A stretch of DNA of 64,000 bases. Source: an uncultured bacterium (GTDB lineage Bacteria; Verrucomicrobiota; Kiritimatiellia; CAIKKV01). A model generated the notes under the pieces. That model ran no database searches and had not been told where the DNA came from. It was given only the letters and a program-made list of their open reading frames with translations. A program made the position numbers and the translations under genes. The stretch is from NCBI GenBank assembly GCA_938038445.1, contig CALHRZ010000019.1, positions 40,649 to 104,648 of the forward strand, read 5' to 3'. Positions 11,994 through 49,787 of this stretch are shown here, in pieces (positions within the stretch are counted from its first letter, which is position 1; every line of letters begins with the position of its first letter).

Positions 11994-11999
11994 GGTGCG

Positions 12000-16450: not shown

Positions 16451-16516
16451 GTGAAGATTCTCGCGCTGCTCGTCGTGGTTGTTGGCAACCGCGCGGTGGG
16501 GCGGGTTCTTTCCTGA
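16451..16516 (+). CDS. ilvBN leader peptide, (M)KILALLVVVVGNRAVGRVLS
   Basis: GTG-initiated 21-codon ORF. Codons 3-11 are I L A L L V V V V, so eight of the nine specify Ile/Leu/Val. It ends 24 nt before a strong intrinsic terminator that precedes ilvB. Too short for the ORF track. Confidence 0.6.
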   Translation: MKILALLVVVVGNRAVGRVLS

Positions 16517-16539
16517 TCGGGAGATTCGCCGGAAGAGCC

Positions 16540-16571
16540 AAAACCACCGCCGAAAGCGGTGGTTTTTTTTT
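16540..16571 (+). terminator. intrinsic terminator acting as the ilvBN attenuator
   Basis: CCACCGC (16544-16550), loop CGAAA, GCGGTGG (16556-16562), then 9 T (16563-16571), with an A-tract on the 5-prime side. It lies 20 nt before the ilvB ATG inside a divergent promoter region. An identical GCGGTGG at 16493-16499, inside the leader ORF, can pair with 16544-16550 as an antiterminator. Confidence 0.7.
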
Positions 16572-16590
16572 AGTTGGAAAGGAGGCAGAG

Positions 16591-18315: not shown

Positions 18316-18332
18316 GAGGGAGGAAGCGCGAC

Positions 18333-18812: not shown

Positions 18813-18820
18813 GGCCGCTT

Positions 18821-30453: not shown

Positions 30454-31127
30454 TCTTCCACCCTCATGGCTTCGACGGGCTCTTTGCGGGCGGCCCAATA
30501 GGCGGGCGCGATGGAGGCGACGATGGAGAGGAGGATACCGATGAGGGCGGCGATGCCCAAAGCGCTCAGGGCATCGCCCCACGGGAAATGGGCCAGGGGG
30601 TAACGGCCATAATGGATCGTGGCGATCAGGATGGCCACGACGAGGCCGATGATCATGCCGAGGAGGGTTCCGAGGAAGCCTTGGAGGGAGGATTCGATGA
30701 AGTAGGATTTGACGATGAACGAATCGAGGGCTCCGAGGCATTTGAGGGTTCCGATTTCTCGGATGCGTTCCGTGACGGACATGAGCATGGCGTTGATGAT
30801 TCCGACGAGGCAGGTGATGAGGGAGAGGACAATGAGGAGAATGGTCATACTGTCCACTCGGGACGCGCTGAAGATATCCACACCGGCCTTCTGGAGGAGG
30901 AGGTTAAGGTCGTCGAGGTTGAGGGCCACGAGGGCATCGGTGACGGACTCGGTGATCAACATATAGGTGAGCAGGGCGATGGCGAGCACAACACCGAGCA
31001 TGGTGATGGCGGAGCGGAAGATCCGTCGGCGGACGCCGGCCCAGGAAACCTGGAAGGCGACGCTCCAGGGAATGGGGTACTGGTCGGGGATTTCCCGGCT
31101 GGAGGGGGAGAGGGAGGGCTCATCCAC
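30450..31127 (-). CDS. minimal FtsX-family permease (4 TM, about 40-aa periplasmic loop)
   Basis: FtsX signature region MLMSVTERIREIGTLKCLGA. TM1 (ITMLGVVLAIALLTYMLI) is followed by only about 40 residues before TM2. GTG start with AGGAGA 7 nt upstream. Confidence 0.85.
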   Translation of the reverse strand: MDEPSLSPSSREIPDQYPIPWSVAFQVSWAGVRRRIFRSAITMLGVVLAIALLTYMLITESVTDALVALNLDDLNLLLQKAGVDIFSASRVDSMTILLIVLSLITCLVGIINAMLMSVTERIREIGTLKCLGALDSFIVKSYFIESSLQGFLGTLLGMIIGLVVAILIATIHYGRYPLAHFPWGDALSALGIAALIGILLSIVASIAPAYWAARKEPVEAMRVEE

Positions 31128-31139
31128 GGCGAAGTCTCC

Positions 31140-34112
31140 TCAATTGCGGTTGAGGTCGATTTGAATGGGGGTATCGAGTGCGAGGGAGAGGATCATGGCG
31201 AGAGCGACCATGATCAGTTCGCCGGCGATGAGGCCGATGAAGAGACCACGGGCGCGGTAATAGGTGGCTTTTCCGCCGTAACGGGTGACAAGGGATTTGG
31301 CCAACCATCCGAGGAGGATGGAAAACCAGTAATAGCGCATGATGGGGTTGACGAGCATGATCAGGCCGATGGGGTGGGGGAGCCAGAAGAGGCTTTGGCG
31401 AAGGTAGAGGAGAAGGGCCATGGCGATGCCGCCGGCAATCACCCAGCTGGCTTCGGCGGAGGTGGGCAAGGGGGGCGTTTTCGTCATGGAGGCGATTTTA
31501 TCGAAGAGAGACTTCGGGAAGCTTGTATAGAACCAGCCGGACATGTTATCAGCGCCCTTGGAGTAGGAGAGCATCAGAGCGGTGGCGATGGAGATGACGG
31601 CAGCCAGCAAGATGGCGAGGATCATGGCGCCATGGAAGCGGAGGCGAGAAAGTCGGAGATCGTCTCGCAGCTTGAGGCTGTTGGCCATGGCGGGTGCGAT
31701 GAAGGTTTTGATATCGAGGAACAGGATGGAATAATAGACCATCAGAGGCGCGAGAAGAGAGGGCGCGGTGGCGGGACGGTGCATACCGAGGAAGGAGCGA
31801 ATGAAGTGGAAGGGGCTGGTCCAGGCCTGGAAGCCGAGGATTCCGCCTTCGGTGACGGCGCGGACGAGTCCGATCGTGATCACGAGGATGACGAAGAGGG
31901 CGAAGAGGGAATGCCAGAATCCGGCCCCCATGCTGCGCCAGAGCAGAAGGACGAGCCCCGCGAAGGAGGCGAGGAAGATGATGGAGGCGAGGCGAAGTTC
32001 CTGGCGCTCGTCAGGGTCCAGTCCTTTTGTGACGGAGGGACGGATGGCGCAGAACAGGTAGCGGCGGCATTTCCAGAGAACGACCGACGCAAAGACCATG
32101 AGGGCTCCGGCTCCTTCGGCTGTTCGGAAGCTGAAGGTGTACCACCATTCTTCGGGAAACGACTGTTCGTTGACACCGTGGCCGAGTCCGACGAGGATCA
32201 TCAGTTGAACCATATAGAGAACGGAGAAGAACCAGAGCGAGAATGAGACCTTGGCGGGGATGAGGAAGGTCAGGCCGATCATGGTGAAAAAGATTGCGGA
32301 TTTCGCGCTGGGCAGAAGAGCCTGGAAGGGGGTGTTGTCGATATAATCCTTCCATACGTTATGGAGGTCGAAGGGCTGAATATTTTGGACCCAACCGGTT
32401 TTGCAAAGGATATTCCATCCGAGCACGAGGGCGGGCACGGCGAACCCGACCCAAAAGAGGCCATTCCGAAAGAGTTCGGGAACGCGGCCGGGTTTCGCGT
32501 CTTGAGCGCCGGCGAGGAGTTCGGGCAGTTCGGTGAGTGGGTAAATGAGCTTTTCGTTGTAGGCCCATTGGCGGAAAATGAGGACATTGAACGCGAGGAG
32601 CATTGCGTAGGTGAGGGCCACGAGCACCATCCAACGGGTCAACGGCAACAGCCAGTCGGACCAGGGGACATCGCCCCAGAGGTAACGGGTGAAGGTGGCA
32701 TCAATGGCCGGAAGCAATGCGCGGGAATTTCGGAGAGCGGAAAAGGTATCCTCGGGCGTTTCGGTCGGGAGACGGTTTTGGATTTCCTCGAGGGTGTTAC
32801 GAAGGGTGTGGATGGTTTGGGCGATTTCGAGGTTGCGGAGAGCGAGTTCACGGAGTCCTGAACGTTGTTCGGTTTCTTTTTTCAGCTGACTGACTTTTTT
32901 GCCCAAAGCGAGCACCTGGGCGTCCAAGCGGCGGATTTCGTCTCCGACGGCGGAGCGCCGGGCATCGCTCAGACGGCTTAACTCCGTTTCAAGATCGGCC
33001 CGTTGGCGGGACAGGGAAACGAGTTCGGCGGAGAGTTCGTCGCGGCGCCGTTCGAACGGGGTGGAATCCGAGACGGCATAAAGGGCGAGGGAGGCCTTTG
33101 AGAGCGCGTCGGCAACGGTTCTCTGCCGCTCGGTTGAAAGCCGGGGGCGATCGCGTTCCTGCTTTACGATTTCCATGGCACGGTGGATTTCCGCGAGCAC
33201 CCGGCGACCGGCGAGGAGACGACGGAGCCGTGCCATATAGCCGACGAAATCATCTTCGCCACGGATGGGGATGAAACCTGGGAATGCACGGAGAGGGGGG
33301 GGGAGGCCGCGTCGGAAGACATCCACCTTATCAAAGGCGTGTTGTTCGAGGCGGGCGAGCTCGGCTTTTCGGGTTTCTGCTTCCCGTCGTTTGGCCTCGA
33401 GTTGTTCGGCAAGGAAGGGGAGCGCCTGTTCTGGGGTGGGGGGGAGATCTGGGGGGCGAACCAGCGCATGCCAGTTCTGGAGAGCGCGGCGAACAGTTTC
33501 ATCGGCCTGTGCGAGGTCGGAGCGAAGGGCGGCGAGTTCCAAGTCTCGTTGTGGGGAGGGGGGATCGGTTTCCAATTTCGCGAGGCGGTTTTTGCGGGTC
33601 TGAAGCGTGGCGAGAGCTTGAACGGTTTGGGCGGCCGTGTCGTGGAGTGTTTGCCATTGTTGGGATTCGTCGCGGGCTACGCGGTAGGCGGCGGCGGCCT
33701 TTTGGATACCGGGTACTGCGACAAAATACGCGTCGTTGAGGAAGGGTTCGACGTAACGGTTCCATTCCGTTTGGTCGTTATTCCAGTGCCGGTTGAAGAG
33801 ACTGCCCATGACGGGGATGAGTTGGTCGGTGAGGCCGAAGGTTGAGACGCCAGCCGAGACGAGTCCCATGGTGAAGATGACGAGGGTTTCTGCGACGGTG
33901 AAGGGACGGAGGACCCGAAGGAGACGTGCGGCCGGGTTGAGGAGAAGAACGGTGATGAGGAGGAGGACGTAAGGGAGTACGGGGATCTGAACGGAGCTGA
34001 TATAGATGTTGTGGCGGTTCCCGAAGTAAACGGTCAGGATGGCAAAAAGGACGGTGAAGAGGGCACCGAGGAAGACGGCCCGGAAAGTGATCCGATTGGT
34101 TTGTTCGTTCAT
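31140..34112 (-). CDS. 990-aa polytopic membrane protein with a roughly 370-aa coiled-coil insertion after TM3
   Basis: About 14 hydrophobic segments. Residues about 125-500 are Arg/Glu/Leu/Ala/Gln-rich and helical (e.g. LETELSRLSDARRSAVGDEIRRLDAQVLALGKKVSQLKKE). The N- and C-terminal motifs are shared with the next gene. Confidence 0.8.
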   Translation of the reverse strand: MNEQTNRITFRAVFLGALFTVLFAILTVYFGNRHNIYISSVQIPVLPYVLLLITVLLLNPAARLLRVLRPFTVAETLVIFTMGLVSAGVSTFGLTDQLIPVMGSLFNRHWNNDQTEWNRYVEPFLNDAYFVAVPGIQKAAAAYRVARDESQQWQTLHDTAAQTVQALATLQTRKNRLAKLETDPPSPQRDLELAALRSDLAQADETVRRALQNWHALVRPPDLPPTPEQALPFLAEQLEAKRREAETRKAELARLEQHAFDKVDVFRRGLPPPLRAFPGFIPIRGEDDFVGYMARLRRLLAGRRVLAEIHRAMEIVKQERDRPRLSTERQRTVADALSKASLALYAVSDSTPFERRRDELSAELVSLSRQRADLETELSRLSDARRSAVGDEIRRLDAQVLALGKKVSQLKKETEQRSGLRELALRNLEIAQTIHTLRNTLEEIQNRLPTETPEDTFSALRNSRALLPAIDATFTRYLWGDVPWSDWLLPLTRWMVLVALTYAMLLAFNVLIFRQWAYNEKLIYPLTELPELLAGAQDAKPGRVPELFRNGLFWVGFAVPALVLGWNILCKTGWVQNIQPFDLHNVWKDYIDNTPFQALLPSAKSAIFFTMIGLTFLIPAKVSFSLWFFSVLYMVQLMILVGLGHGVNEQSFPEEWWYTFSFRTAEGAGALMVFASVVLWKCRRYLFCAIRPSVTKGLDPDERQELRLASIIFLASFAGLVLLLWRSMGAGFWHSLFALFVILVITIGLVRAVTEGGILGFQAWTSPFHFIRSFLGMHRPATAPSLLAPLMVYYSILFLDIKTFIAPAMANSLKLRDDLRLSRLRFHGAMILAILLAAVISIATALMLSYSKGADNMSGWFYTSFPKSLFDKIASMTKTPPLPTSAEASWVIAGGIAMALLLYLRQSLFWLPHPIGLIMLVNPIMRYYWFSILLGWLAKSLVTRYGGKATYYRARGLFIGLIAGELIMVALAMILSLALDTPIQIDLNRN

Positions 34113-34136
34113 GGAAGGTCCAGGGGTTGCATCGGG

Positions 34137-36134
34137 CTAATAGAGGAGCGGGGCGATCATTTTGGTCAGGATGGTGATGGCGATGGAGACCATGGCGGTC
34201 AATCCCATGCCGCAGGAGAAACCGGCCATGAGCACGGTGGCGTATTTGAGCCACACGTCGCCGATTCGTTTTCGGATGTAGAACCGGCCTACGAGGGCGC
34301 CGCAGAGCTGGAGGATGAGAGCGCCGGGATAGGACTCGCCGAGGCCGCGCACCATACCGAAGATGAGAAGGGTGGGGAGATTAAACAGGGCGAGAAAGGC
34401 GTAGGTGAAAACGCCGGAGACGGTTCCGGTAAAGAACCATCGCCATTTCCACGCTTCCATGAAGAGGGACCCCCCCTCCATTGTTGCGCTGTAGGTGAGG
34501 GAAGCGTTCTTGGCCTGAAGGTCCCACATCATTTGGGCGAAGGGGTAAGCTTCGGAAGGGACGGGCGCCATTTGCCAGAGAACCTGCGAAAAGATGAGGG
34601 AGGCGATGATGATGATGGGGACCACGATGATTTGGGTTTTGATTTGGCTGACGATTTTGGTGCCGCAGAGTTCCATGACGCGGAATTCTTTGGCGGCGAA
34701 GCCGTAGTTTGGAATTGGAGCGGGGGCGAACCAGATGCGGACACCGCGGTAGCCGGAGAGGATGTAGGTGGCTTCGCGGATGAGGGGGATGGTGACGTGC
34801 TGGCCGCAAAGCCCTTCCAGTTTTGCGGAGGCGTAGGAGATGAGGGGGGTATAGACGATCGCGTAAAAGACGAAGAAGGGCCATGGGAAACCGGGGACGA
34901 GAATACAGGAGAGAATGATCCAGAAGGCGCTCGTGAAGAGATAGATGCCGAGCGCGATGAAGATGGAAAAATCGCCGCGTTTGACGTTGTTTGTGACAAG
35001 TCTCCGCCAGGCAGAGGGTTCTGCTTGGAACGGGGCGTTGGAGAGGGAAGCGTGTTGTTTTTCCCGCCGTTTTTTGAGGAGGGTTTCGAAAATCTTCCAG
35101 AAACTGATCAAGGTGACGGCGATGGTGAGACCGACGGAGAATGAAAGGTAGAAGTCCACCGAATTGCTGAAGACCGTATCGATGAACTGCATTTGGGGCG
35201 TCCAGTTGGTCAAGATGCCCCGGGCGTGAAGGAAGGGATTGAGAATCATGGTGAAGAGGACGCCAAAGGCGCCGCCGATTACGGCCCAAAAGGGCATGAC
35301 GGTTCCGAGGAGGAAAGCGCCGAGGTCGAAGGTCAAATTGATGGGGGTAGCGGGGAATACACGGCTGAACTGTTCCGTGAAATCCACCCAGGGGATGGGG
35401 ATAAGGCGGATGGGTTTGGCGAGGAAGGCGCCGGTGACGGCTGGAATCCCGATGTAGAAGAAGCCGAAGACGAGGCCGAGCATCCCCCCGATGGAGAACC
35501 AGCGCCATCGCCAAGGCTGGCGGTTTTCCTTTGATTCGGTCAAGGCCATGATTCCGGAGGCATCTACGGGAGCGAAGGGGAAGGGAAGTTTTTCCACATC
35601 GTTGGTGATGCGGTAGAGGACATAGCCGAGGCCGTAATGGTCGAGCCGATGGATAATGACGGCCAGGGAGGTGAGAAGGATAGGGGGAAGCCACGCCCGG
35701 GTGAAGAAGGTACGTCCAGCCGCTTCGATCTGGTCGGCGGAGGGGGCGAACCAGGGGGGGATGTCCTGGGCGACTCCCATGGCGCGAGCGTATTCGGATT
35801 GGACGTAGTACTGGTTCCAGAGCAGGCCTTGGAAGGGGGAAGCCAGGGTGAGACCGGCCATGTAGTAGAGGACGTACACTTCCTGCATGCGCAATTCTTT
35901 GAGGGAGCGGCGGGCGATTTCCGCGAAGATGATGATGGTGACCCATCGGGCGGCGGCGCCGATATGGGCGCCGCTGCCGGCGAAAAGGGCGAGGTACATG
36001 GAGGCCGGCATCATGACGAACCCGAGGAACAGGGCGCCGATCGCCGTTTTCCAGGTGAAGCCGTCCTCATACGTTTCGGGCGGCAGCATTAGGTTTCGGT
36101 ATCGCTCGAGTTCTCGATCTTCGGCTCGCGACAT
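34137..36134 (-). CDS. 665-aa polytopic membrane protein, paralogue of the 990-aa protein without the coiled-coil insert
   Basis: ATG 36134 with GAGGA upstream; the listed ORF start 36197 overlaps the upstream gene. About 14 TM segments. It shares an N-terminal motif (TWKTAIGALF here, TFRAVFLGALF in the 990-aa protein) and the layout of the C-terminal region with the 990-aa protein; compare GRFYIRKRIGDVWLKYATVLMAGFSCGMG here with LVTRYGGKATYYRARGLFIGLIAGE there. Confidence 0.8.
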   Translation of the reverse strand: MSRAEDRELERYRNLMLPPETYEDGFTWKTAIGALFLGFVMMPASMYLALFAGSGAHIGAAARWVTIIIFAEIARRSLKELRMQEVYVLYYMAGLTLASPFQGLLWNQYYVQSEYARAMGVAQDIPPWFAPSADQIEAAGRTFFTRAWLPPILLTSLAVIIHRLDHYGLGYVLYRITNDVEKLPFPFAPVDASGIMALTESKENRQPWRWRWFSIGGMLGLVFGFFYIGIPAVTGAFLAKPIRLIPIPWVDFTEQFSRVFPATPINLTFDLGAFLLGTVMPFWAVIGGAFGVLFTMILNPFLHARGILTNWTPQMQFIDTVFSNSVDFYLSFSVGLTIAVTLISFWKIFETLLKKRREKQHASLSNAPFQAEPSAWRRLVTNNVKRGDFSIFIALGIYLFTSAFWIILSCILVPGFPWPFFVFYAIVYTPLISYASAKLEGLCGQHVTIPLIREATYILSGYRGVRIWFAPAPIPNYGFAAKEFRVMELCGTKIVSQIKTQIIVVPIIIIASLIFSQVLWQMAPVPSEAYPFAQMMWDLQAKNASLTYSATMEGGSLFMEAWKWRWFFTGTVSGVFTYAFLALFNLPTLLIFGMVRGLGESYPGALILQLCGALVGRFYIRKRIGDVWLKYATVLMAGFSCGMGLTAMVSIAITILTKMIAPLLY

Positions 36135-36156
36135 AGCGGGGGGTCCTCGCTCCGGC

Positions 36157-39100
36157 TCAGGCGAACGATTCTGTGCCTTGTTGGATGTACAGGGCATGTT
36201 GCGCGGCGTCGAGATTCCGCCACTGCATCATGTGTTTCCGCAGTTTTTCAAGAAACGGTTTGTTGGTGCTGATCCAGTTTGTGTCCTGGCCGCTCAGGCG
36301 GTCGGTTTTCATGGTCACGCGGTAGGACTGAACGAGGGGATCGTAGGCGGCTTCAAACCGGGTGCGCTGCGTCACGCCGAGGTCGAAGGGAGCCAACGCG
36401 ATTTCGTAGACCAATCGGTAGAACGGGCGGCCTTCGGCATCGGCACCTTTTTCTTTTCCCACGCAGCGGGCGATGAGGTCGCCCATGGATGCCTCGGTGT
36501 ACTGACTGAGGTATTCTTCGAGATAGCGCATGATTCCGGGGAGGAGGGACTCCTGATAGATGAAGGGGAATACGACTTCCATTCGGTTGCCGTCGGTCGC
36601 GGGCATGGACCATTTGCGTTTGCCGGAGGGAACGGCGGCCTTGGTGGCGACCACGGCAGGGTAAAGGGTGGAGAGCAGGACGACCGCAATGGTGAAGACA
36701 ATGACGTATGCGACAGCGAGCGAGGAGAAATTGAGATTGATGTCGCTGACGAGGCCGAGGCGGTTGAGGCCGAGACTGAGAAACTGACCGATGAGGTACC
36801 CGCCGACGGAGCCGATTACGCCGTACACGAAGGATTCGGCGAGGAAGAAAAGTCCTATGTGGGTGGGATTGAGGCCGACGGCGTTATAGATGGCGATTTC
36901 CCTTTTTCGTTCAAAGACAGACCCCAGCATGGTGTTGAGGATGATGGTGCTGGCGATGAGAAGGGGGATGATGAGCATGGCGAGGCCGCCGATGGAGGTT
37001 CGATAGTTCGAGCCGATGTAGAAAATGCCGGGTTTGTTTTCCCGCCCTTTTCCATGCTCCCCGACAACGAAGGAGCGCCGGCTGCCCATAAAGAACTTTG
37101 CGGCGGTGGCGGTCAAGAGATCATCGACGGCCTCCCAGATGGTCGAATCGTCCCGCAGGCGAATCGACAGACTGTACGGGAGGGCGCCAAGGCGGCGGGC
37201 GGTTTGGGCGGGCATGAGGAGAAGAGCCGAAGTTTCCACATAAAAGACTCCGGATTCGTCCATTTCTTCTTCCGACATGCTGCGACCGGTGTCACCGCTG
37301 TCCGCCATCATTCCGGTGACCTGGCGGACGAGGTCTTTGATGGGGATGAGGGGGCGTTCATTGAGATCCGTGATGGTTCGGAAGCGTTCTTCATCCAGAA
37401 TGCCGATGACCCGATATGGGCGGCCTTGGATGAGGAGACGGGCGGTTCCGATCGTATCGGGTGTGAGGTGAAGGACGCGGGCGAGGCTGGCGGGGACGAT
37501 CACTTCGTTTGCATCGTCATGCGTGAAAAAGCGGCCGGCCACAATCGGCATGGGCTGAAGAAAGCCGTCCTCAGCGGCCATCAGGCCGAGGATTGCTTCG
37601 ATCTGGGCGGAAGCACCTGTTTCTGTTTCGACCCGGAGGGGGACGGCGACGCCGCTGACCTTTTCGGGGAGCCACCAGTGGCGTTCGATGATATCGGCAC
37701 GATGGGCAAACATGGCTCGGATGGCGTTATAGGTGCCGTCGTCCATTCGGGCGTTTCCGGGCCAATGGAAGAGGATGCCGGTGTAAGGGGCTTCGGGACC
37801 TCGGCTGACCAACGTAGGCGCCAGGCGCCTGGAAATGCTGGTGAAGGAAAGCATGGTAAACGTGACGAGCACGATGGTCGCGGTGGTGAGGGCCGTCCGG
37901 ATTCGGCGTTTTTTCATATTGTTCACGCCGATCAGCATGGCCTGTTGACCGACGGTTGAAACCCCCACTTCGGTGTATTCGGAGGCGGACAGGGTTCGGA
38001 CGAGCATTTGCATCTCGCCTTCGAAACGCCCGTGGAGGATGAAAATGACGAAGAGTCCGAGCGCGAGCATCACGAAACCGAGGAAAATCGCTTCGGGATA
38101 CTGGGCGATACGGAAGGCGGGATGGATGAAACGGAAGAGGAAAAACGTTCCGACGAAGAGGGCGGCAAAAAGGCCCATTTCGGCCTCGATCCGAGAGACG
38201 GTGAACAGCATTTTTTCGAGGAAGAAGCAGAAGGGGAGCAACAGGGCCATGTAAAAGAGAACCGCCTTGAGCATGTCGTTGGTTGTTGCGGCGGTTTGTT
38301 CATACGATTTCACGGCGGCGCCGAGCGCAGCGGCCAATTCGCGGAGATAGGCGACATGCTGATGGTTTTTGATGGACTCTTCCGCGCGTTGGGAGGCGTT
38401 TCGTGCCCGGCGGAGGAAGTCTTGAGCGAGTTCATCGGAGACCCCTTTCATCCCGCCGAGGCGGTGCGCGTTGAGGAAGATCATGTCCCGCACGGCATCC
38501 CAGAAAAAGTCGGGGTTCATTTCGCCTTGGCGGAACCCGATGCCTACGGGATTTTCAGGGGAAGCGTTCAGGGCCAGTCGTTTATTGGATGTGATCAACT
38601 TGATGCGTTCGTCGGGGTGGAGGTAGAAAGCGCCTGGGCCCGTGAGATCCATGGGAAGGGATTTGCCGGCGGCATACAAGGAGGCGATTCCCATCATTCC
38701 GAACCGACGGGGGGAAGCGTTTTTGACTCCCGAGAGAAGAAGATAGGGACGGGCGCTGACGTCAATGGACCGGGAGCCGATGAGAGAGGAGTCTTGGAAG
38801 GAATAGACGGGGAATTCTACAGAGGGAAAGAGTGCGAAGCGACGGACGGGCGTTCCACGACTGACTTGGGAAAGGACTTTCGAATGGCTTTCCCCTGCGT
38901 CGATGACATGGTCGACGGAAATCCAATCGGGCGCAAGCCGGTATGCGGTACTGGAGAGCGAGAGTTTTTCGCGGAGTCCATAGAAAATCGCTGAGGCGCG
39001 TTCGTCTGTCAAAGCGGTGTAGATGTTGGGAATTTCGCCGCTGAATCGGCGGGCTTCGGCTGCGTAAAGGATGACCAAACTACCGGGGACGGGAATTTGA

Positions 39101-41163
39101 GGAAGAACCGATGCGGCGAATTCGTCGAACTTATATGTTTTGACTTGTGAGGACCAGAAGGCGAAGTCCTGAGGCGGGCGGGTGAGGTCGGTGGAGCGGG
39201 TGATGGTTGGATCGTCCAGCAGGGCTTTCAGGAATCGTGGGGCGAAGGCCATTATTTCCGCAAGGTTTTCATAGGGGAGGCGGTCGAACCGGTCGGAGGG
39301 GGTAAAAACAGAGCCGAATCCGGCAAAGGGCGTGTTGAGGCTGAAGGCGGGGGTTTGTCCGGCGGCATGGAAAAAGCCTACGGCAGGGGTTGCGGTGCGG
39401 ATAAAATACGGCTCCGGCATTCCTCCGACGAAAGTTAAGGTGTCTTCGAGGAGATTGGGTTTCCCTTCCGTAACGACTTCCGGAAGGGAGCGTGCGACGC
39501 GGACGGCATTGACCCCGAACGCGGGGGCCCACCGGCGTCCGGAGGCGGCGCCGGACTGAGACGAAAAACCGATCCATGGATTGTCGAACGTCAGTTCGAG
39601 CGTCAAAACAAACGGGACGGTATAAGGCTGGGCGGCTTGACGGATTGCCGCGTTTCCAAGGCTGATTTCCAGATCCTGGCGGTCCAGCTCCGCGGCTCGG
39701 CGATTGGTCTGCACAATATCCCGCACATAATGGCGAAGGATCTCGCGTTCCTCCTCGGAGAGGTCGCCGAGGACTGTTTTGACCCCCGCTTTGTTGAAAA
39801 GGGTCAATACGTTGACGAATTTGGCTTGCTGGACGGCCATTTCCGCGAGGCGGGTCTCGATCGCGTGGATTTCTTGGTTCAACCGTTTCGCTTCGGTTTC
39901 GTTTTCCTGATCCCGAAGACGGCGGGCATCCCGGATGAGCCGGTCTTTTTGCTGTTCGAGTCGGGCGCGGTCGCCCTTTAAGCCGTTGACGTCGCGCTTG
40001 GCGCGAGCGACGATTGGTTCTTTTATCGTGATGATCCGGCCGACGGAGTCGTCGGTCAGGGAACGCCACTGAAGGAGCCGTTCGGAATCTTCTGCGTCGC
40101 GGGTCCCGTCGAGAACGAGACGGGAGTAATAATCAACATAAAGTTCCTCGATCCGGAGATCGGCGGCCAAGACGTTGCGGACGGTTTCGATTTCGCCGGG
40201 GGGGGCGAGCAGGTACCAAGCCAATGCGCGTTCGCCGAGGAAGTACTGGGTATGGGCGTTGACGGCGGCGAGCATGATGGAACGGGCCGGCCGATTTTCT
40301 TTGAACGATTCCAAGAGGCGGGTTAAGAGGTAGAGATTTGCGCCGGCGCGAGCACTCTGCCCGAGTCCGGGAACCACATTGTTGCCGTCGATCGGAGCGA
40401 CAAGGAGCGGCATTTCCCGGGCGAGTTGAGGATCGGCACCCGGCAGAATGACCCAGAGAGCGCGGGCGTAGCAACGTTCCCAGCGGGAGGGTTCTGACTC
40501 GATGCGCGCCGTGAGGGTTTTGCCGGAGGCCAGGGCTTCGCGGAGGATGGCGGCCTCGGCGGGTTCGAGGTAATAGCGGGGGACTGCGACCTCCGAATTG
40601 GAGACCTTGGTGGTGGCTTCGCGATGTTCGAGATTTTCCTCGCCGAGGAAGAGGAAACCGCGAAGTCCGAACCTTAACAGGTGTTCCCATGCGGCGCCTG
40701 AATTGAACTCCAGGACGCCGATGCCGTTGTGCAGGGGAATGCCAGAGGCGGCTTGGAGATCGGGAATATCGCCGCGGCCGAGGTAAATAAGGGAGGCGGT
40801 GAAATCGGGCGTTGGAAAGTTGCCGGGGCGCAGCCAGGTAGGGTGCATGGCGTGGAGCGTCAGGCGACGCCCATTGGGGAGGGTCAGAGCCGCAGGGCCG
40901 GGAATAAACCGCATGGCGGGAAAGCGGACGGCTCCATGGGGGAAACCGGTTTCGGCGAACAGGCGTGCGATTTTTTCCTCGAGGGCGGCATTTCCGGGAG
41001 ACCCGACAGAACGATTTTCAAATCCCTGAAAAAAGGCGTTCAAGGATTCCCGGAGGGCGTGAATCGCGTCGGGATCGGTCCAGCGCGGGGTTTTTGGGGC
41101 GGATGCCCAAAGGGCCGACGCCAGAAAACCTGCGGTCCAAAGGGTCCACAGAAACGATTTCAC
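36157..41163 (-). CDS. 1668-aa fusion protein: signal peptide, degenerate M28/PA-like periplasmic domain with coiled coil, 3 TM, MacB-type FtsX permease, 180-aa cytoplasmic tail
   Basis: GTG start with AGGAGA 9 nt upstream. Signal peptide MKSFLWTLWTAGFLASALWASA. M28-like start RSVGSPGNAALEEKIARLF. FtsX TM1 KKRRIRTALTTATIVLVTFTMLSF, then a roughly 230-aa loop and the FtsX core FERKREIAIYNAVGLNP plus 3 TM. Confidence 0.85.
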   Translation of the reverse strand: MKSFLWTLWTAGFLASALWASAPKTPRWTDPDAIHALRESLNAFFQGFENRSVGSPGNAALEEKIARLFAETGFPHGAVRFPAMRFIPGPAALTLPNGRRLTLHAMHPTWLRPGNFPTPDFTASLIYLGRGDIPDLQAASGIPLHNGIGVLEFNSGAAWEHLLRFGLRGFLFLGEENLEHREATTKVSNSEVAVPRYYLEPAEAAILREALASGKTLTARIESEPSRWERCYARALWVILPGADPQLAREMPLLVAPIDGNNVVPGLGQSARAGANLYLLTRLLESFKENRPARSIMLAAVNAHTQYFLGERALAWYLLAPPGEIETVRNVLAADLRIEELYVDYYSRLVLDGTRDAEDSERLLQWRSLTDDSVGRIITIKEPIVARAKRDVNGLKGDRARLEQQKDRLIRDARRLRDQENETEAKRLNQEIHAIETRLAEMAVQQAKFVNVLTLFNKAGVKTVLGDLSEEEREILRHYVRDIVQTNRRAAELDRQDLEISLGNAAIRQAAQPYTVPFVLTLELTFDNPWIGFSSQSGAASGRRWAPAFGVNAVRVARSLPEVVTEGKPNLLEDTLTFVGGMPEPYFIRTATPAVGFFHAAGQTPAFSLNTPFAGFGSVFTPSDRFDRLPYENLAEIMAFAPRFLKALLDDPTITRSTDLTRPPQDFAFWSSQVKTYKFDEFAASVLPQIPVPGSLVILYAAEARRFSGEIPNIYTALTDERASAIFYGLREKLSLSSTAYRLAPDWISVDHVIDAGESHSKVLSQVSRGTPVRRFALFPSVEFPVYSFQDSSLIGSRSIDVSARPYLLLSGVKNASPRRFGMMGIASLYAAGKSLPMDLTGPGAFYLHPDERIKLITSNKRLALNASPENPVGIGFRQGEMNPDFFWDAVRDMIFLNAHRLGGMKGVSDELAQDFLRRARNASQRAEESIKNHQHVAYLRELAAALGAAVKSYEQTAATTNDMLKAVLFYMALLLPFCFFLEKMLFTVSRIEAEMGLFAALFVGTFFLFRFIHPAFRIAQYPEAIFLGFVMLALGLFVIFILHGRFEGEMQMLVRTLSASEYTEVGVSTVGQQAMLIGVNNMKKRRIRTALTTATIVLVTFTMLSFTSISRRLAPTLVSRGPEAPYTGILFHWPGNARMDDGTYNAIRAMFAHRADIIERHWWLPEKVSGVAVPLRVETETGASAQIEAILGLMAAEDGFLQPMPIVAGRFFTHDDANEVIVPASLARVLHLTPDTIGTARLLIQGRPYRVIGILDEERFRTITDLNERPLIPIKDLVRQVTGMMADSGDTGRSMSEEEMDESGVFYVETSALLLMPAQTARRLGALPYSLSIRLRDDSTIWEAVDDLLTATAAKFFMGSRRSFVVGEHGKGRENKPGIFYIGSNYRTSIGGLAMLIIPLLIASTIILNTMLGSVFERKREIAIYNAVGLNPTHIGLFFLAESFVYGVIGSVGGYLIGQFLSLGLNRLGLVSDINLNFSSLAVAYVIVFTIAVVLLSTLYPAVVATKAAVPSGKRKWSMPATDGNRMEVVFPFIYQESLLPGIMRYLEEYLSQYTEASMGDLIARCVGKEKGADAEGRPFYRLVYEIALAPFDLGVTQRTRFEAAYDPLVQSYRVTMKTDRLSGQDTNWISTNKPFLEKLRKHMMQWRNLDAAQHALYIQQGTESFA

Positions 41164-41176
41164 AAGGGCAACTCTC

Positions 41177-41557
41177 CTACGGGATGATGAGGGTAATCAG
41201 TTTGCGTTCCGTCAACTGACGAAGAAAAGCGGCCACCATATATTCCGCCTCTCGCCGGTTGTTGCGGTATCGGGCCACGAAGGCATCCAGAATTTCCCGG
41301 ACACTTCGCTCGCCGTTGATCTGTTCGAAGACGAAAGAACCCAGTTCGTCCAACTGGACGCGTTTTTCGAGGATGGGCGGCATGAATCGGGCGAAGAGCC
41401 CCGGTTTACGGGGCGAGCGGATGACGAGATGAAGAGTACCGTCGGCCTGTCGCTCGATATGGACACCCCCGTTGATCATCGGCCGGGCTTCGAGGGAGCG
41501 GGCCCGGTCGAGGGTTGGGCGGGGGAGGGACGGAGCGGTCGGTCGCAGGAGGCTCAA
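41177..41557 (-). CDS. PqqD-family (RiPP-recognition-element-like) small protein
   Basis: The C-terminal half, VQLDELGSFVFEQINGERSVREILDAFVARYRNNRREAEYMVAAFLRQLTERKLI, matches the PqqD winged-helix pattern (LN..g..iw.l.dG..tv.ei...l...y......a..dv..fl..L...gli). ATGA overlap with the upstream ATPase stop. Confidence 0.78.
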   Translation of the reverse strand: MSLLRPTAPSLPRPTLDRARSLEARPMINGGVHIERQADGTLHLVIRSPRKPGLFARFMPPILEKRVQLDELGSFVFEQINGERSVREILDAFVARYRNNRREAEYMVAAFLRQLTERKLITLIIP

Positions 41558-42354
41558 TGGATATCCTCTCCGATTCCTCCGACGCGGATGTTCAAATTCT
41601 TCCGTGATTCGATCCGGTCAATTTTGCCGTCGCGAATCCAGAGAATTCGATCGGACACGTCGAGCATTTTCATGTCATGGGTTGCGGAAATCACGGTGAC
41701 GTTGTCTTCTTCCTTGAGCTGGCAGAGCAATTCGATCATTTCCCGTCCCGTCTTGACGTCCAGATTGGCCGTAGGCTCGTCGGCCAGGATGATGACCGGG
41801 TTATTGGCGATGGCGCGGGCGACGGCGACGCGCTGTTGCTGCCCGCCGGAGAGTTCGTAGGGCCGGTGAAATATACGGTTGCCGAGTCCGACCCGTTCCA
41901 GAATGCCGGCGGCCTTTTCTCGAGCTTCGTCCTCCGTGAGCCCGGCGAAGATCATGGGGAGCATGACATTTTCGAGGGCGGTAAGAACGGGCAAGATGTT
42001 ATAGGTCTGGAAAATGTAGCCAATTTTATGGCAGCGCATCCACGCCAGTTCGTAGGAGTCGAGCTGCGCCACATCAATTTCATCAATAAAAACCATGCCG
42101 GAGGAGGGGGCGTCAATGCCGCCGATCATATTGAAGAGAGTCGTTTTGCCGGATCCGGACGGGCCCATGATGGAGAGGTATTCACCCCGATAGACGTCGA
42201 GTGTAACGCCGTCGAGAGCCTTGGTGACGGTTTCTCCCGATCCATAGTAACGTTTGACGTTGATGGCACGGATTACGATATCGCGAGGCTGGCTTTGGGT
42301 GTTTTCCGTCAACGGCGGCTCCTGGCTTATATTCGCTGGGAGTAGTGGGATCAA
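41554..42354 (-). CDS. ABC transporter ATP-binding protein, MacB/LolD/FtsE type (copy 1)
   Basis: Walker A GPSGSGKTTLFNMIGG, signature LSGGQQQRVAVARA, Walker B IILADEPTANLD. The listed start 42354 is TTG. An alternative TTG at 42312 has AGGAG 6 nt upstream and would remove the N-terminal 14 aa. Confidence 0.92.
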   Translation of the reverse strand: MIPLLPANISQEPPLTENTQSQPRDIVIRAINVKRYYGSGETVTKALDGVTLDVYRGEYLSIMGPSGSGKTTLFNMIGGIDAPSSGMVFIDEIDVAQLDSYELAWMRCHKIGYIFQTYNILPVLTALENVMLPMIFAGLTEDEAREKAAGILERVGLGNRIFHRPYELSGGQQQRVAVARAIANNPVIILADEPTANLDVKTGREMIELLCQLKEEDNVTVISATHDMKMLDVSDRILWIRDGKIDRIESRKNLNIRVGGIGEDIH

Positions 42355-43567: not shown

Positions 43568-43598
43568 GTCTTTAGTGTAAGGGGGAGTGCCGGCGAGG

Positions 43599-49748: not shown

Positions 49749-49787
49749 GGCGTGCCTTTCACTGTCCAAACGTTTGTCGGGTTTGGA

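What the first reader, a model, noticed from the sequence alone, without database searches (positions are those of the whole stretch)
36157..41163. 1668-aa protein fusing a catalytically degenerate M28/PA-like periplasmic domain to a MacB-type FtsX permease
Seen: a cleavable-looking signal peptide, then about 900 exported residues that begin like an M28 aminopeptidase/PA-domain protein (RSVGSPGNAALEEKIARLF...). In my by-eye alignment the zinc-ligand segments read LLVAPIDGNNVVPGLGQSARAG where M28 enzymes have ..AH.D.....GA.D..SG, so the His and the bridging Asp are replaced. The domain is interrupted by a coiled coil (DRARLEQQKDRLIRDARRLRDQENETEAKRLNQEIHAIETRLAEM). Three TM helices follow, then a canonical FtsX unit: TM1, a roughly 230-aa periplasmic loop, ERKREIAIYNAVGL and 3 TM. 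A roughly 180-aa cytoplasmic tail with no motif I recognise ends the protein. The helix count is consistent with this topology: exported N-domain, an odd number of TM helices, then an in-to-out FtsX TM1. Inference: a non-catalytic peptidase-fold binding module (the transferrin-receptor precedent) is mechanically coupled to an ATP-driven FtsX piston within one polypeptide. I know of no studied example.
Basis: partly seen in the sequence, partly recalled or inferred. Interest (0 to 1): 0.7.

Follow-up and report, generated by a model that had tools for sequence, protein, structure and literature searches.

The report
FtsX permease with dead-peptidase head
A 1668-residue membrane protein joins an exported aminopeptidase-like domain that has lost its zinc site to a MacB/FtsX-type ABC-transporter membrane unit. 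It belongs to a conserved, unstudied gene cluster found in more than ten bacterial phyla, whose cargo is unknown.

Summary
ORF 36157-41163 (-) is one real gene. Homologues of 1450-1950 aa with the same architecture occur in at least 596 species-level genomes from more than ten phyla.

The exported N-terminal part is an M28+PA aminopeptidase fold. AlphaFold2 gives pLDDT 92. Foldseek matches 2ek8, BSAP, PaAP, transferrin receptor and GCPII at E 1e-14 to 1e-10. The family profile hits 2ek8 at 3e-10 and nicalin at 4e-5.

Four of the five zinc ligands are gone, and the general-base Glu is an almost invariant His. No family member examined keeps the full ligand set.

The C-terminal part has three extra TM helices, then a canonical MacB-type FtsX unit with a MacB_PCD domain, then a conserved 160-aa cytoplasmic α/β tail of unassigned fold.

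The gene lies in a tightly packed eight-gene operon (28784-42354, - strand). The operon encodes two LolD-like ATPases, a PqqD-like protein, two distantly related OPT-like polytopic proteins (one is DUF6785/6784), a small FtsX lacking a periplasmic domain, and a soluble unknown protein.

Best reading: it is the large subunit of an asymmetric type VII ABC mechanotransducer whose non-catalytic head works with OPT-like permeases. The substrate is unknown. This is a new variant of a known kind, and no literature was found.

The parts
41098..41163 (-). aa 1-22: N-terminal hydrophobic segment, either a signal peptide or an uncleaved anchor. GTG start at 41163, preceded by GGAG.
   Evidence: Translation, DNA around the start, helix 2-19 in the AF2 model. 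Cleavage was not tested.
40174..41046 (-). aa 40-330: first half of the M28 core with the inserted PA domain (about aa 115-235). Holds the equivalents of H97 (P257), D99 (D259), D117 (A273/G274), E151 (H304) and E152 (T305).
   Evidence: Family profile against PDB: 2ek8 at 3.3e-10, YwaD at 2.6e-5, AAP, nicalin, nicastrin. Foldseek. Residue frequencies in 82 homologues.
39631..40200 (-). aa 322-511: helical insertion (H322-346, hairpin H382-418/H422-456, H470-503) between the E151 and D179 equivalents.
   Evidence: AF2 secondary structure, pLDDT 83-97. Insertion length is 38-40 aa in many phyla and 193-440 aa in PVC members.
39184..39630 (-). aa 512-660: second half of the M28 core. E523 is the D179 equivalent and F620 the H256 equivalent; D624 is conserved.
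   Evidence: Spliced-core profile against PDB: AAP alignment, nicalin at 3.6e-5. Frequencies.
38584..39171 (-). aa 665-860: beta-rich exported domain of unassigned fold, with invariant D755.
   Evidence: AF2 strands 670-857, pLDDT 80-96. No Pfam hit.
38275..38508 (-). aa 886-963: exported helical stalk (three helices) that runs into the first extra TM helix.
   Evidence: AF2 models.
38035..38274 (-). aa 964-1043: three extra TM helices (964-986, 992-1014, 1025-1043). They return the chain to the cytoplasm.
   Evidence: Hydropathy. Helices in the AF2 model of aa 924-1668. Invariant HPAF motif.
37891..38034 (-). aa 1044-1091: cytoplasmic linker with the basic segment NNMKKRRIRT just before FtsX TM1.
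   Evidence: Alignment conservation. AF2 helix at 1068-1085.
36994..37890 (-). aa 1092-1390: FtsX TM1 and the periplasmic MacB_PCD domain.
   Evidence: Pfam PF12704, 35.8 bits against a cut-off of 27. Foldseek matches to MacB periplasmic domains 5c59 and 5lj8.
36643..36993 (-). aa 1391-1507: FtsX TM2-TM4 with the coupling-helix segment ERKREIAIYNAVGL.
   Evidence: Pfam PF02687, 49.9 bits. phmmer to LolC 7arh at 5e-9, with alignment. Foldseek MacB 5gko at 1.3e-11.
36160..36642 (-). aa 1508-1668: conserved cytoplasmic alpha/beta tail: one strand, one helix, four long antiparallel strands, two C-terminal helices. Fold unassigned.
   Evidence: AF2 pLDDT about 80-90. 22 invariant columns in 12 sequences. 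No Pfam hit and no PDB sequence hit. Length is constant at 161-184 aa across the family.
41554..42354 (-). ABC ATPase 1 (LolD/MacB-NBD type). Walker A, signature, Walker B and H-loop are intact.
   Evidence: Pfam and NCBIfam. Motif scan.
41177..41557 (-). PqqD-like (RRE-type) 126-aa protein. Its start overlaps the stop of ATPase 1.
   Evidence: Pfam PqqD at 4.6e-10. Conserved next to the giant gene in many loci.
34137..36134 (-). 665-aa polytopic membrane protein, a distant OPT-like protein. It is the most conserved partner of the giant gene.
   Evidence: More than 2092 homologues, some named 'peptide transporter' or 'OPT/YSL family transporter' by NCBI. phmmer E 1e-130 to 0 across phyla. A Pfam OPT hit in only 1 of 16 members.
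31140..34112 (-). 990-aa polytopic protein with DUF6785 and DUF6784, an OPT-like N-terminus, and a roughly 330-aa coiled-coil insertion. Distant paralogue of the 665-aa protein.
   Evidence: Pfam. hhalign against the 665-aa family: probability 81%, E 1.2e-5 over 559 columns.
30450..31127 (-). Small FtsX permease (225 aa, 4 TM) with only about 35 aa between TM1 and TM2, so no periplasmic domain.
   Evidence: Pfam FtsX at 3.7e-18. Hydropathy.
29710..30453 (-). ABC ATPase 2 (247 aa from the ATG that overlaps the small-FtsX stop). Motifs intact.
   Evidence: Pfam and NCBIfam. Motifs. The same ATGA overlap occurs in Oligosphaera.
28784..29713 (-). Soluble protein of about 309 aa with no Pfam family (motif FAWEGVSFDVPADWEL). 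It is homologous to a roughly 330-aa gene found between the OPT-like gene and the PqqD gene in other phyla.
   Evidence: BLASTP E 2e-7 to L069:17158-18150. Found in 27 loci. No TM segment; GTG start overlaps the stop of ATPase 2.

Best explanation
The protein is the large membrane subunit of a type VII (MacB/FtsX-type) ABC mechanotransducer.

Shown:
- an exported head with the M28 aminopeptidase + PA fold, which lacks the co-catalytic zinc site throughout the family
- a beta-rich domain and a helical stalk
- three extra TM helices
- a canonical FtsX unit (TM1, MacB-type periplasmic domain, TM2-4 with coupling helix)
- a conserved cytoplasmic tail
- LolD-like ATPase genes with intact motifs in the same operon

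Inferred:
- The giant subunit pairs with the small FtsX that lacks a periplasmic domain, giving an asymmetric TM dimer. One ATPase in two copies would serve it, or ATPase 1 plus ATPase 2 in PVC bacteria. LolC/LolE/LolD2 and the one-domain asymmetry of BceB are precedents.
- ATP binding and hydrolysis move the FtsX stalk helices and periplasmic domain. That motion is passed to the covalently attached, non-catalytic head, which acts as a ligand or partner-binding module, as in transferrin receptor, nicastrin and nicalin.
- The head works with the two OPT-like polytopic proteins that almost always accompany it. The most likely job is to capture, extract or hand over a peptide-like or amphipathic envelope substrate.
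- The PqqD-like protein, the soluble 309-aa protein and the cytoplasmic tail form the cytoplasmic side of the complex.

The substrate and the direction of transport are not known.
For: One gene, not an artefact:
- 37 close homologues, nearly all 1630-1700 aa
- at least 596 loci in GTDB species genomes, and the best 80 match nearly full length
- 889 representative clusters at 50% identity match the ectodomain, and the long ones are nearly all 1450-1940 aa

Fold of the head:
- AF2 pLDDT 91.9, pTM 0.89
- Foldseek: 2ek8 at 3.5e-14, PaAP, BSAP, TfR1 at 4.8e-12, GCPII
- family profile: 2ek8 at 3.3e-10, nicalin at 3.6e-5
- Pfam Peptidase_M28 and PA in distant members

Lost zinc site:
- explicit alignments
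- frequencies in 82 members: no Glu at the E152 position, no His at the H256 position, His at the H97 position in 6 of 82, Asp at the D117 position in 4 of 82

FtsX unit:
- Pfam above threshold
- LolC, MacB, LolF and YtrF by sequence
- MacB, LolCE, HrtB, YtrF, YbbP and BceB by fold

ATPases: adjacent and with intact motifs.

Small FtsX without a periplasmic domain. In Desulfobacterota, Armatimonadota, Nitrospirota and Desantisbacteria, a small-FtsX gene and a single ATPase gene sit together next to the giant gene.

Partners:
- Of 46 loci with at least 8 kb on both sides, the 665-aa OPT-like gene is present in 34 and the DUF6785 gene in 38.
- The order ABC-PqqD-giant-OPT-like-DUF6785-FtsX-ABC is the same in the cultured Oligosphaera ethanolica.
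- Gene boundaries overlap or lie 12-24 nt apart.

Precedents:
- Mechanotransmission to a degenerate peptidase domain through an antiparallel coiled coil: FtsEX-EnvC (PMC7668044).
- BceB as two fused MacB units, one of which has lost its periplasmic domain (PMC5985334).
Against: - No experiment or complex model supports the proposed pairing of the giant and small FtsX. In many Latescibacterota, Gemmatimonadota and Omnitrophota loci, no ATPase or small FtsX lies within 10 kb.
- D259, H304, K186, D624 and an acidic residue at position 523 are almost invariant. This argues for a specific conserved site, which could be catalytic rather than merely binding.
- OPT relatedness of the partners is weak. 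Pfam OPT hits 1 of 16 members, there is no PDB sequence hit, and hhalign between the two partner families gives only 81% probability. 'Peptide' as the substrate class therefore rests mainly on annotation names, the PqqD fold and the peptidase ancestry.
- The AF2 model of the membrane half is of moderate quality (pLDDT 77.7, pTM 0.54).
- The whole protein could not be modelled in one piece.
Confidence: 0.55

Rival explanations
1. The head is not inert. The M28 scaffold has been rebuilt into a different active site: invariant Asp259, His304 at the old general-base position, Lys186, Asp/Glu523 and Asp624, possibly with a single metal. The protein would then be a membrane-tethered hydrolase or transferase whose activity or access is gated by the ABC motor, comparable to type VII ABC systems that control hydrolases (FtsEX with amidases, CwlO or RipC; YbbAP-TesA).
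For: - D259 is present in 82/82 members, H304 in 79/82, K186 in 81/82, D624 in 81/82, and an acidic residue at 523 in 69/82, across more than ten phyla.
- The best-scoring AAP chain for the family profile is the E151H mutant 2anp, so the His sits exactly at the catalytic position.
- Type VII ABC systems are known to partner with hydrolases (abstracts of PMC12646458 and PMC7668044).
Against: - No known M28 enzyme works without the two-zinc site.
- Conserved residues at a vestigial site are also seen in binding-only relatives.
- The positions that replace the ligands are variable (P/Y/F at H97, S/Q/A/N at D117, T/F/H at E152, D/F at H256), which is not what a new metal centre would show.
- The geometry of the site could not be inspected because no coordinates were accessible.
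Confidence: 0.2
2. It is an ordinary MacB-type exporter or efflux pump. The large N-terminal module would be only a lineage-specific decoration, for stability, oligomerisation or envelope anchoring, and the OPT-like neighbours would be functionally independent transporters.
For: - The FtsX unit and the ATPases are canonical.
- Sources annotate family members simply as ABC transporter permease.
Against: - No MacA/HlyD-type adaptor or outer-membrane factor is encoded in the operon.
- The head, beta domain, stalk, three extra TM helices and tail are all conserved in length and sequence across phyla at 25-30% identity.
- The OPT-like genes stay next to the giant gene even where the ATPase genes do not.
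- Gene boundaries are tightly coupled.
Confidence: 0.12
3. It is a sensor or target-protection module of the BceAB type. The head would detect an extracellular peptide, and the ABC motor would signal to, or protect, a partner rather than move cargo.
For: - The proposed asymmetric FtsX arrangement with one large extracytoplasmic domain resembles BceB (PMC5985334; Foldseek hit 8g4c at 1.6e-4).
- The head has a peptide-binding ancestry, and a PqqD-like protein is present.
Against: - No histidine kinase or response regulator is in the operon or in the conserved neighbourhoods.
- The invariant partners are polytopic transporter-like proteins.
Confidence: 0.06
4. The ORF is two genes joined by a frameshift or assembly error.
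For: None found.
Against: The same uninterrupted architecture occurs in independent assemblies, including the isolate genomes of Oligosphaera ethanolica and Desulfogranum mediterraneum, and in at least 596 loci.
Confidence: 0.01

Closest known systems
MacB / LolC-LolE / other type VII ABC (FtsX-fold) permeases
   Same: - Four-TM FtsX unit with a MacB_PCD periplasmic domain between TM1 and TM2.
- Coupling-helix segment after TM2.
- Separate LolD/MacB-type ATPase.
- Sequence and fold matches.
   Different: - About 940 exported residues and three additional TM helices precede the FtsX unit, and a 160-aa cytoplasmic domain follows it.
- No MacA/TolC or LolA-type partner is in the locus.
- NCBIfam equivalog models for LolC/E, MacB and FtsX score 17-33 bits against cut-offs of 225-966.
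- The likely partner is a small FtsX without a periplasmic domain.
FtsEX-EnvC (and FtsEX with PcsB, CwlO or RipC)
   Same: A type VII ABC motor is coupled to a degenerate metallopeptidase-fold domain through an antiparallel coiled coil, and mechanotransmission rather than transport is the output (PMC7668044). The PVC members of this family also carry a helical hairpin next to a dead peptidase fold.
   Different: - Here the peptidase fold is M28+PA, not LytM/M23.
- It is fused in cis to the permease, and the hairpin is inserted inside the peptidase domain.
- The hairpin is absent in many phyla.
- FtsX equivalog models are far below cut-off.
- No amidase is in the cluster.
Transferrin receptor, nicastrin, nicalin (non-catalytic M28/PA-fold ectodomains of membrane complexes)
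   Same: - M28+PA fold with incomplete metal ligands, used as an exposed receptor or gatekeeper domain of a membrane protein or complex.
- Foldseek TfR1 at 4.8e-12.
- Profile hits to nicalin at 3.6e-5 and nicastrin at 0.16.
   Different: - Those are eukaryotic single-pass proteins.
- None is fused to, or known to be driven by, an ABC motor.
- The pattern of retained residues differs: here Asp259, His304 and Lys186 are retained.
PA-domain M28 aminopeptidases (Aneurinibacillus AM-1 aminopeptidase 2ek8, B. subtilis YwaD/BSAP, P. aeruginosa PaAP)
   Same: These are the closest sequence and fold relatives of the head. The PA domain is inserted at the same place.
   Different: - They are soluble secreted enzymes with the full H-D-E-D-H two-zinc site and a catalytic Glu.
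- The window protein keeps only an acidic residue at the D179 position and has His in place of the catalytic Glu.
BceB and YbbP (asymmetric or duplicated FtsX permeases)
   Same: They set a precedent for a type VII TM assembly in which only one FtsX unit carries a large extracytoplasmic domain, and for extra TM helices (PMC5985334). Foldseek hits 8g4c and 9ge7.
   Different: In those proteins the two FtsX units are in one chain. Here they would be two separate gene products, which is inferred. Neither BceB nor YbbP has a peptidase-fold head.

Membership tests
Type VII ABC / MacB-FtsX permease superfamily | FtsX C-terminal three-TM module (Pfam PF02687) above the gathering score | tested here: met
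   49.9 bits against a cut-off of 25.5, aa 1396-1508. LolC 7arh at 5.4e-9 with alignment.
Type VII ABC / MacB-FtsX permease superfamily | Large periplasmic domain of MacB_PCD type between TM1 and TM2 | tested here: met
   PF12704, 35.8 bits against a cut-off of 27, aa 1090-1289. Foldseek matches to MacB periplasmic domains 5c59 and 5lj8, E 2.6e-4 to 2e-3.
Type VII ABC / MacB-FtsX permease superfamily | Cognate LolD/MacB/FtsE-type ATPase with intact motifs | tested here: met
   Two ATPase genes are in the operon. LolD model: 221 and 236 bits (below the equivalog cut-off of 307, so they are not LolD itself). Walker A, Walker B and H-loop are intact in both.
Type VII ABC / MacB-FtsX permease superfamily | ATP-driven mechanotransmission across the membrane | not testable with these tools
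   Needs ATPase and conformational assays or structures in different nucleotide states.
MacAB-TolC tripartite efflux pump | Periplasmic adaptor (MacA/HlyD family) and outer-membrane factor encoded with the permease; MacB equivalog score | tested here: not met
   No HlyD or OMF domain in the operon or flanking genes. The MacB model NF007826 scores 17.5 bits against a cut-off of 966.
LolCDE lipoprotein extractor | LolC/LolE equivalog score | tested here: not met
   TIGR02212 scores 27.6 bits against 362; NF008076 scores 33.2 against 473.
FtsEX cell-division complex | FtsX equivalog score | tested here: not met
   FtsX_Gneg, FtsX_Gpos and FtsX_actino score 19-24 bits against cut-offs of 225-255.
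FtsEX-EnvC-type hydrolase-activator system | Coiled coil plus degenerate metallopeptidase-fold domain associated with the FtsX permease | tested here: inconclusive
   A helical hairpin next to a dead peptidase fold is present in PVC members. However, it is fused in cis, the fold is M28+PA rather than LytM/M23, the hairpin is absent in many phyla, and no amidase is in the cluster.
M28 metallopeptidases (MEROPS M28, Pfam PF04389) | M28 alpha/beta fold | tested here: met
   Foldseek: 2ek8 at 3.5e-14, 6hc6 at 3e-12, 8acr at 2.2e-12. Family profile: 2ek8 at 3.3e-10.
M28 metallopeptidases (MEROPS M28, Pfam PF04389) | Pfam Peptidase_M28 gathering score | tested here: not met
   No hit in the window protein even at E<=10. 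Met only by distant family members: P0035 at 45.5 bits, P0036 at 24.5 bits.
M28 metallopeptidases (MEROPS M28, Pfam PF04389) | Five co-catalytic zinc ligands (AAP H97, D117, E152, D179, H256) | tested here: not met
   The equivalents are P257, A273/G274, T305, E523 and F620. Only the D179 position keeps an acidic residue. None of 82 homologues has the full set.
M28 metallopeptidases (MEROPS M28, Pfam PF04389) | Catalytic general-base Glu (AAP E151) | tested here: not met
   Replaced by His304, which is His in 79 of 82 members.
Non-catalytic M28/PA receptors (TfR, nicastrin, nicalin) | M28+PA fold with an incomplete metal site, exposed on the non-cytoplasmic side of a membrane protein | tested here: met
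   Foldseek TfR1 at 4.8e-12. Nicalin at 3.6e-5 and nicastrin at 0.16 by profile. The topology follows from the N-terminal hydrophobic segment and the TM count.
Non-catalytic M28/PA receptors (TfR, nicastrin, nicalin) | Demonstrated ligand or substrate binding without catalysis | not testable with these tools
   Needs purified ectodomain, metal analysis, and activity and binding assays.
OPT/YSL transporter family (partner genes, not the giant protein) | Pfam OPT (PF03169) match over the protein | tested here: inconclusive
   - The 665-aa partner has no Pfam hit itself; 1 of 16 diverse members hits OPT at 3.2e-8.
- Some sources name it 'OPT/YSL family transporter'.
- The DUF6785 partner hits OPT only at aa 8-91.

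The most novel reading that the evidence does not exclude
The eight-gene cluster encodes a previously unrecognised envelope machine that is widespread in diderm phyla. In it, a type VII ABC motor carries its own nicastrin/transferrin-receptor-like receptor head and is physically coupled to a pair of OPT-like secondary-transporter-fold proteins and to a cytoplasmic PqqD/RRE peptide-binding protein. This would be a hybrid ABC plus OPT system for ATP-gated capture and translocation, or extraction, of a peptide or peptide conjugate. In PVC bacteria, the periplasmic helical hairpin of the head and the roughly 330-aa coiled coil of the DUF6785 partner would form the mechanical link.
Probability: 0.3. 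Interest if true: 0.8.

Novelty: new variant of a known kind. Interest (0 to 1): 0.62.

Why it matters
Type VII ABC systems (MacAB-TolC, LolCDE, FtsEX, BceAB, YbbAP) are the model for ATP-driven work done outside the cytoplasmic membrane. Each newly characterised member has revealed a different envelope process.

This family adds an architecture not described in the literature searched. The effector-like, peptidase-derived domain is fused to the motor subunit itself, and the conserved partners are two transporter-fold proteins rather than an adaptor or a hydrolase.

The family is large and old: at least 596 species-level genomes and more than ten phyla, many of them poorly studied (Kiritimatiellia, Lentisphaeria, Latescibacterota, Omnitrophota, Gemmatimonadota, Armatimonadota, Desulfobacterota). 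A function assigned once would annotate thousands of genes, including the DUF6785/DUF6784 proteins and a 665-aa family with more than 2000 members.

It is also a bacterial parallel to nicastrin and nicalin. It gives a tractable case of how a dead aminopeptidase fold is reused as a module of a membrane machine.

At least two cultured hosts could be used for experiments: Oligosphaera ethanolica and Desulfogranum mediterraneum.

Tried and rejected
- Pfam on the N-terminal 400-aa pieces and on the last 180 aa at E<=10 gave nothing relevant. The M28 relationship needed a family profile and a structure model.
- A single-sequence search of the whole protein against PDB found only FtsX-type chains.
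- The tail profile against PDB sequences found no hit at E<=10. Foldseek on the C-terminal model gave weak matches of 130-170 columns to PsbP, Bet v 1, PYL and SRPBCC proteins (E 3e-3 to 4e-2). The output does not say which part of the query aligned, so no fold is assigned to the tail.
- The profile of the 665-aa partner against PDB found no hit. BLASTP between the two large partners found nothing; only hhalign linked them.
- The search for related loci with the head-only alignment failed because it had no conserved 7-10-column stretch. The whole-protein alignment worked.
- PADLOC gave a strong hit to 'CARF_m8--CARF_LolE_TM' (141 bits). Scanning the pieces showed it covers only the PCD and FtsX parts, not the head or tail. 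It is a closer FtsX subfamily, not evidence for a defence role. The ATPase hits in PADLOC are generic P-loop matches.
- Literature searches found no description of this architecture or cluster: DUF6785/DUF6784, FtsX + peptidase M28, FtsX + PqqD, FtsX + PA/nicastrin, FtsX + OPT.
- The frameshift or fusion artefact reading was rejected.
- Whole-protein and complex modelling was not possible: the limit is 1200 aa and two jobs.

Full report
**1. Observation**

The ORF at 36157..41163 (- strand) is present as described: 1668 codons with a GTG start. The start is credible. TAG, the stop of the upstream PqqD-like gene, is followed by GGAGAG and, 8-10 nt later, by the GTG. The next gene starts 22 nt after the stop, at 36134, and is preceded by GGAGCGAGGA.

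Hydropathy gives this layout:
- an N-terminal hydrophobic segment
- no further hydrophobic segment until aa 964
- three TM helices at 964-986, 992-1014 and 1025-1043
- a basic cytoplasmic linker
- FtsX TM1 at 1092-1110
- a 280-aa loop
- TM2-4 at 1391-1409, 1436-1454 and 1482-1500
- a 160-aa tail

Pfam finds MacB_PCD (aa 1090-1289, 35.8 bits) and FtsX (aa 1396-1508, 49.9 bits), both above the gathering score, and nothing else.

**2. Is it one gene?**

Yes. A search with aa 1-1010 returned 37 proteins. Nearly all are 1630-1700 aa and carry FtsX. They come from Kiritimatiellae, Lentisphaerae, Oligosphaera ethanolica and Victivallales, and more distantly from Desulfogranum mediterraneum and other Thermodesulfobacteriota.

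The best 80 match the query from about residue 30-100 to the end, at 24-62% identity. They come from these groups:
- Kiritimatiellia
- Lentisphaeria
- 'Verrucomicrobiota'
- Planctomycetota
- Latescibacterota
- Gemmatimonadota
- Omnitrophota
- Armatimonadota
- Desantisbacteria
- Nitrospirota
- Desulfobacterota-type MAGs

An exhaustive phmmer of the ectodomain (aa 1-960) against 1.84 billion representatives found 889 clusters at E<=1e-3, 428 at E<=1e-10 and 75 at E<=1e-30. The long hits are almost all 1450-1940 aa. The short ones look like contig-truncated fragments. The head is therefore essentially always fused to the FtsX unit.

**3. The head**

Pfam does not see M28 in this protein, even at E<=10 on sub-pieces. 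Distant family members do hit it: Peptidase_M28 in P0035 (9e-12), P0036 and P0034, and PA in P0034.

A profile of aa 40-345 from 13 members hits PA-containing M28 aminopeptidases in the PDB:

| PDB chain | Protein | E-value |
|---|---|---|
| 2ek8 | Aneurinibacillus aminopeptidase | 3.3e-10 |
| 6hc6 | YwaD/BSAP | 2.6e-5 |
| 1amp | Aeromonas aminopeptidase (AAP) | 5e-3 |
| 7tm3 | nicalin | 5e-3 |
| – | nicastrin | 0.13 |

An AF2 model of aa 1-970, built with a 37-sequence alignment, is very confident (pLDDT 91.9, pTM 0.89). Its best PDB matches are 2ek8 (3.5e-14), PaAP, BSAP, transferrin receptor 1 (4.8e-12) and GCPII.

**4. Metal ligands**

These come from the HMM alignments to AAP and from frequencies in 82 distinct family members taken from the loci.

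| AAP residue | Window residue | Family (82 members) |
|---|---|---|
| H97 (ligand) | P257 | P32, Y30, F11, H6 |
| D99 | D259 | D in 82/82 |
| D117 (bridging ligand) | A273/G274 | S, Q, A, N; Asp in 4 |
| E151 (general base) | H304 | H in 79/82 |
| E152 (ligand) | T305 | T, F, H; never Glu |
| D179 (ligand) | E523 | D52, E17 |
| H256 (ligand) | F620 | D41, F37; never His (weak-scoring stretch; motif FTPSD against HTTQD) |

The best AAP chain for the profile is the E151H mutant 2anp. No member examined has the full ligand set, so the two-zinc aminopeptidase site is lost family-wide.

D259, H304, K186 (81/82), D624 (81/82) and an acidic residue at position 523 are nevertheless conserved. Some defined site persists there.

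**5. Other exported parts**

It is inserted between the E151 and D179 equivalents.

This insertion is not a family constant. The spacing is:
- 38-40 aa in many Latescibacterota, Omnitrophota, Gemmatimonadota and Armatimonadota (AAP has 28)
- 140-180 aa in other groups
- 193-440 aa in PVC members

After the M28 core come a beta-rich domain (about aa 665-860, no assignable family) and a three-helix stalk (aa 886-963) that continues into the first extra TM helix.

**6. The membrane half**

The AF2 model of aa 924-1668 has pLDDT 77.7. It matches the following:
- MacB (5gko at 1.3e-11; 5nik)
- LolC and LolE
- Spr0694-0695
- HrtB
- YtrF
- YbbP
- BceB
- isolated MacB periplasmic domains

phmmer aligns ERKREIAIYNAVGL with the LolC segment EKQGEVAILQTQGL that follows TM2.

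NCBIfam equivalog models for LolC/E, MacB and FtsX are far below their cut-offs. The protein is therefore a member of the superfamily but of none of the characterised families.

The tail (aa 1508-1668) is predicted as one strand, one helix, four long antiparallel strands and two C-terminal helices (pLDDT about 80-90). It has 22 invariant columns in 12 diverse sequences and a constant length across the family. It has no Pfam hit and no PDB sequence hit. Its fold remains unassigned.

**7. Context**

On the - strand between 28784 and 42354 lie eight genes with overlapping or nearly abutting boundaries:
1. ATPase 1
2. PqqD-like protein
3. the giant FtsX
4. a 665-aa polytopic protein
5. a 990-aa DUF6785/DUF6784 protein with an OPT-like N-terminus and a roughly 330-aa coiled-coil insertion
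6. a 225-aa FtsX with only about 35 aa between TM1 and TM2
7. ATPase 2
8. a soluble unknown protein of about 309 aa

Both ATPases keep Walker A, Walker B and the H-loop.

The same order occurs in the isolate genome of Oligosphaera ethanolica. Desulfogranum mediterraneum has small FtsX, ATPase, giant, DUF6785 and a 652-aa protein.

I searched the ORFs of 84 loci with the window's proteins.
- The 665-aa protein is the best-conserved partner (E 1e-130 to 0, even where the giant protein is only 25-30% identical).
- The DUF6785 protein is next.

Among 46 loci with at least 8 kb on both sides:

| Component | PVC-like loci (16) | Other phyla (30) |
|---|---|---|
| 665-aa partner | 15 | 19 |
| DUF6785 | 16 | 22 |
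| PqqD-like | 12 | 8 |
| small FtsX | 13 | 4 |
| cluster-type ATPase | 14 | 4 |
| ~330-aa soluble protein | 9 | 8 |

The 665-aa family has more than 2092 members. Some are named 'peptide transporter' or 'OPT/YSL family transporter' by NCBI, but only 1 of 16 diverse members reaches a Pfam OPT hit. hhalign links it to the DUF6785 family over nearly the full length (probability 81%, E 1.2e-5).

PVC members combine the long hairpin in the head with the long coiled coil in the DUF6785 partner. This is suggestive of an interaction, but it is confounded by shared ancestry.

**8. Mechanism**

Shown: a type VII ABC TM unit, its ATPases, and an exported M28/PA head without the zinc site, all in a conserved operon with two transporter-fold proteins.

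Inferred:
- **Pairing.** The giant subunit pairs with the small FtsX. This is parsimonious where only one small-FtsX/ATPase gene pair accompanies the giant gene. There is precedent in LolC/LolE/LolD2 and in the one-domain asymmetry of BceB (PMC5985334).
- **Motion.** ATP-driven movement of the FtsX stalk and periplasmic domain is passed to the head. FtsEX passes motion through the EnvC coiled coil to a degenerate LytM domain in the same way (PMC7668044).
- **Role of the head.** It binds a ligand or partner and cooperates with the OPT-like proteins.

The peptide-like nature of the substrate is the weakest step. It rests on the ancestry of the head, the PqqD/RRE fold and annotation names.

**9. 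Rivals**

- **A repurposed catalytic site** is the main alternative, because D259, H304 and K186 are invariant.
- **A plain efflux pump** is unlikely. No adaptor or outer-membrane factor is encoded nearby, and all the extra parts are conserved.
- **A BceAB-like sensor** lacks a two-component partner in the locus.
- **An assembly artefact** is excluded.
- **A defence role**, suggested by a PADLOC hit, was traced to FtsX/PCD similarity only.

**10. Novelty and verdict**

Sources annotate family members only as 'ABC transporter permease' or 'FtsX-like permease'. Five literature searches found no description of the architecture or the cluster.

It is a new variant of a known kind: a type VII ABC permease with a fused nicastrin/TfR-like dead-aminopeptidase head and OPT-like partners.

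The function remains open.

Interest is moderate to high. The family is widespread, ancient, multi-component and entirely uncharacterised, and cultured hosts are available.

Noticed in passing
window 1-64000: GC skew of the + strand is strongly positive in every 2-kb window (+0.09 to +0.29) and never changes sign. This holds even though the long genes between about 29 and 50 kb are on the - strand. The skew is therefore tied to the strand, as replication-related skew would be, rather than to gene orientation, and it is unusually strong.
   Followed up: no
window 43599-49769 (-): 2056-aa bacterial alpha-2-macroglobulin (MG2, MG3, A2M_BRD, A2M, TED and bMG10 domains; weak TPR hits near aa 358-391). 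It lies upstream of HflX (42416-43639) and the cluster. It is not conserved with the cluster in other genomes.
   Followed up: partly
window 31140-34112 (-), aa ~140-475: The DUF6785 partner of PVC bacteria carries a roughly 330-aa coiled-coil insertion that the 640-740-aa versions in other phyla lack. The same lineages have the long helical hairpin in the head of the giant protein. Possible co-evolving periplasmic coiled coils.
   Followed up: partly
window 28784-29713 (-); L069:17158-18150, L041:17050-18060, L081:15808-16743, L072:19467-20474, L037:14632-15621: A soluble protein of about 310-335 aa with no Pfam family (N-terminal motif FAWxGhxhxVPxDWxL) travels with the cluster in several phyla. 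It sits next to the PqqD-like gene outside PVC and after ATPase 2 in the window.
   Followed up: partly
L050 (Latescibacterota OZ244937.1) 7436-20906; also OZ241838.1 (L046, L047) and OZ220721.1 (L045, L069): Some Latescibacterota genomes carry two copies of the giant gene. In L050 there is a tandem DUF6785-giant-DUF6785-giant arrangement.
   Followed up: no
window 36643-38043 (-), aa 1041-1507: The FtsX/PCD part scores much higher against the PADLOC model 'CARF_m8--CARF_LolE_TM' (141 bits) than against Pfam FtsX (50 bits). The TM unit of this family is therefore a close relative of the LolE-like membrane module fused to CARF domains in candidate type III CRISPR accessory proteins.
   Followed up: partly
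window 26316-28787 (+): 823-aa protein with DUF4838 and a GH2-type sugar-binding domain, convergent with the end of the cluster. This fits a glycan-degrading PVC organism.
   Followed up: no
window 34137-36134 (-), N-terminus of the 665-aa partner: The cytoplasmic N-terminal peptide of the 665-aa partner (…ELERYRNLMLPP…FEDGFTWKT) is conserved across phyla. It could be a docking peptide for the PqqD/RRE-like protein. This is pure conjecture.
   Followed up: no
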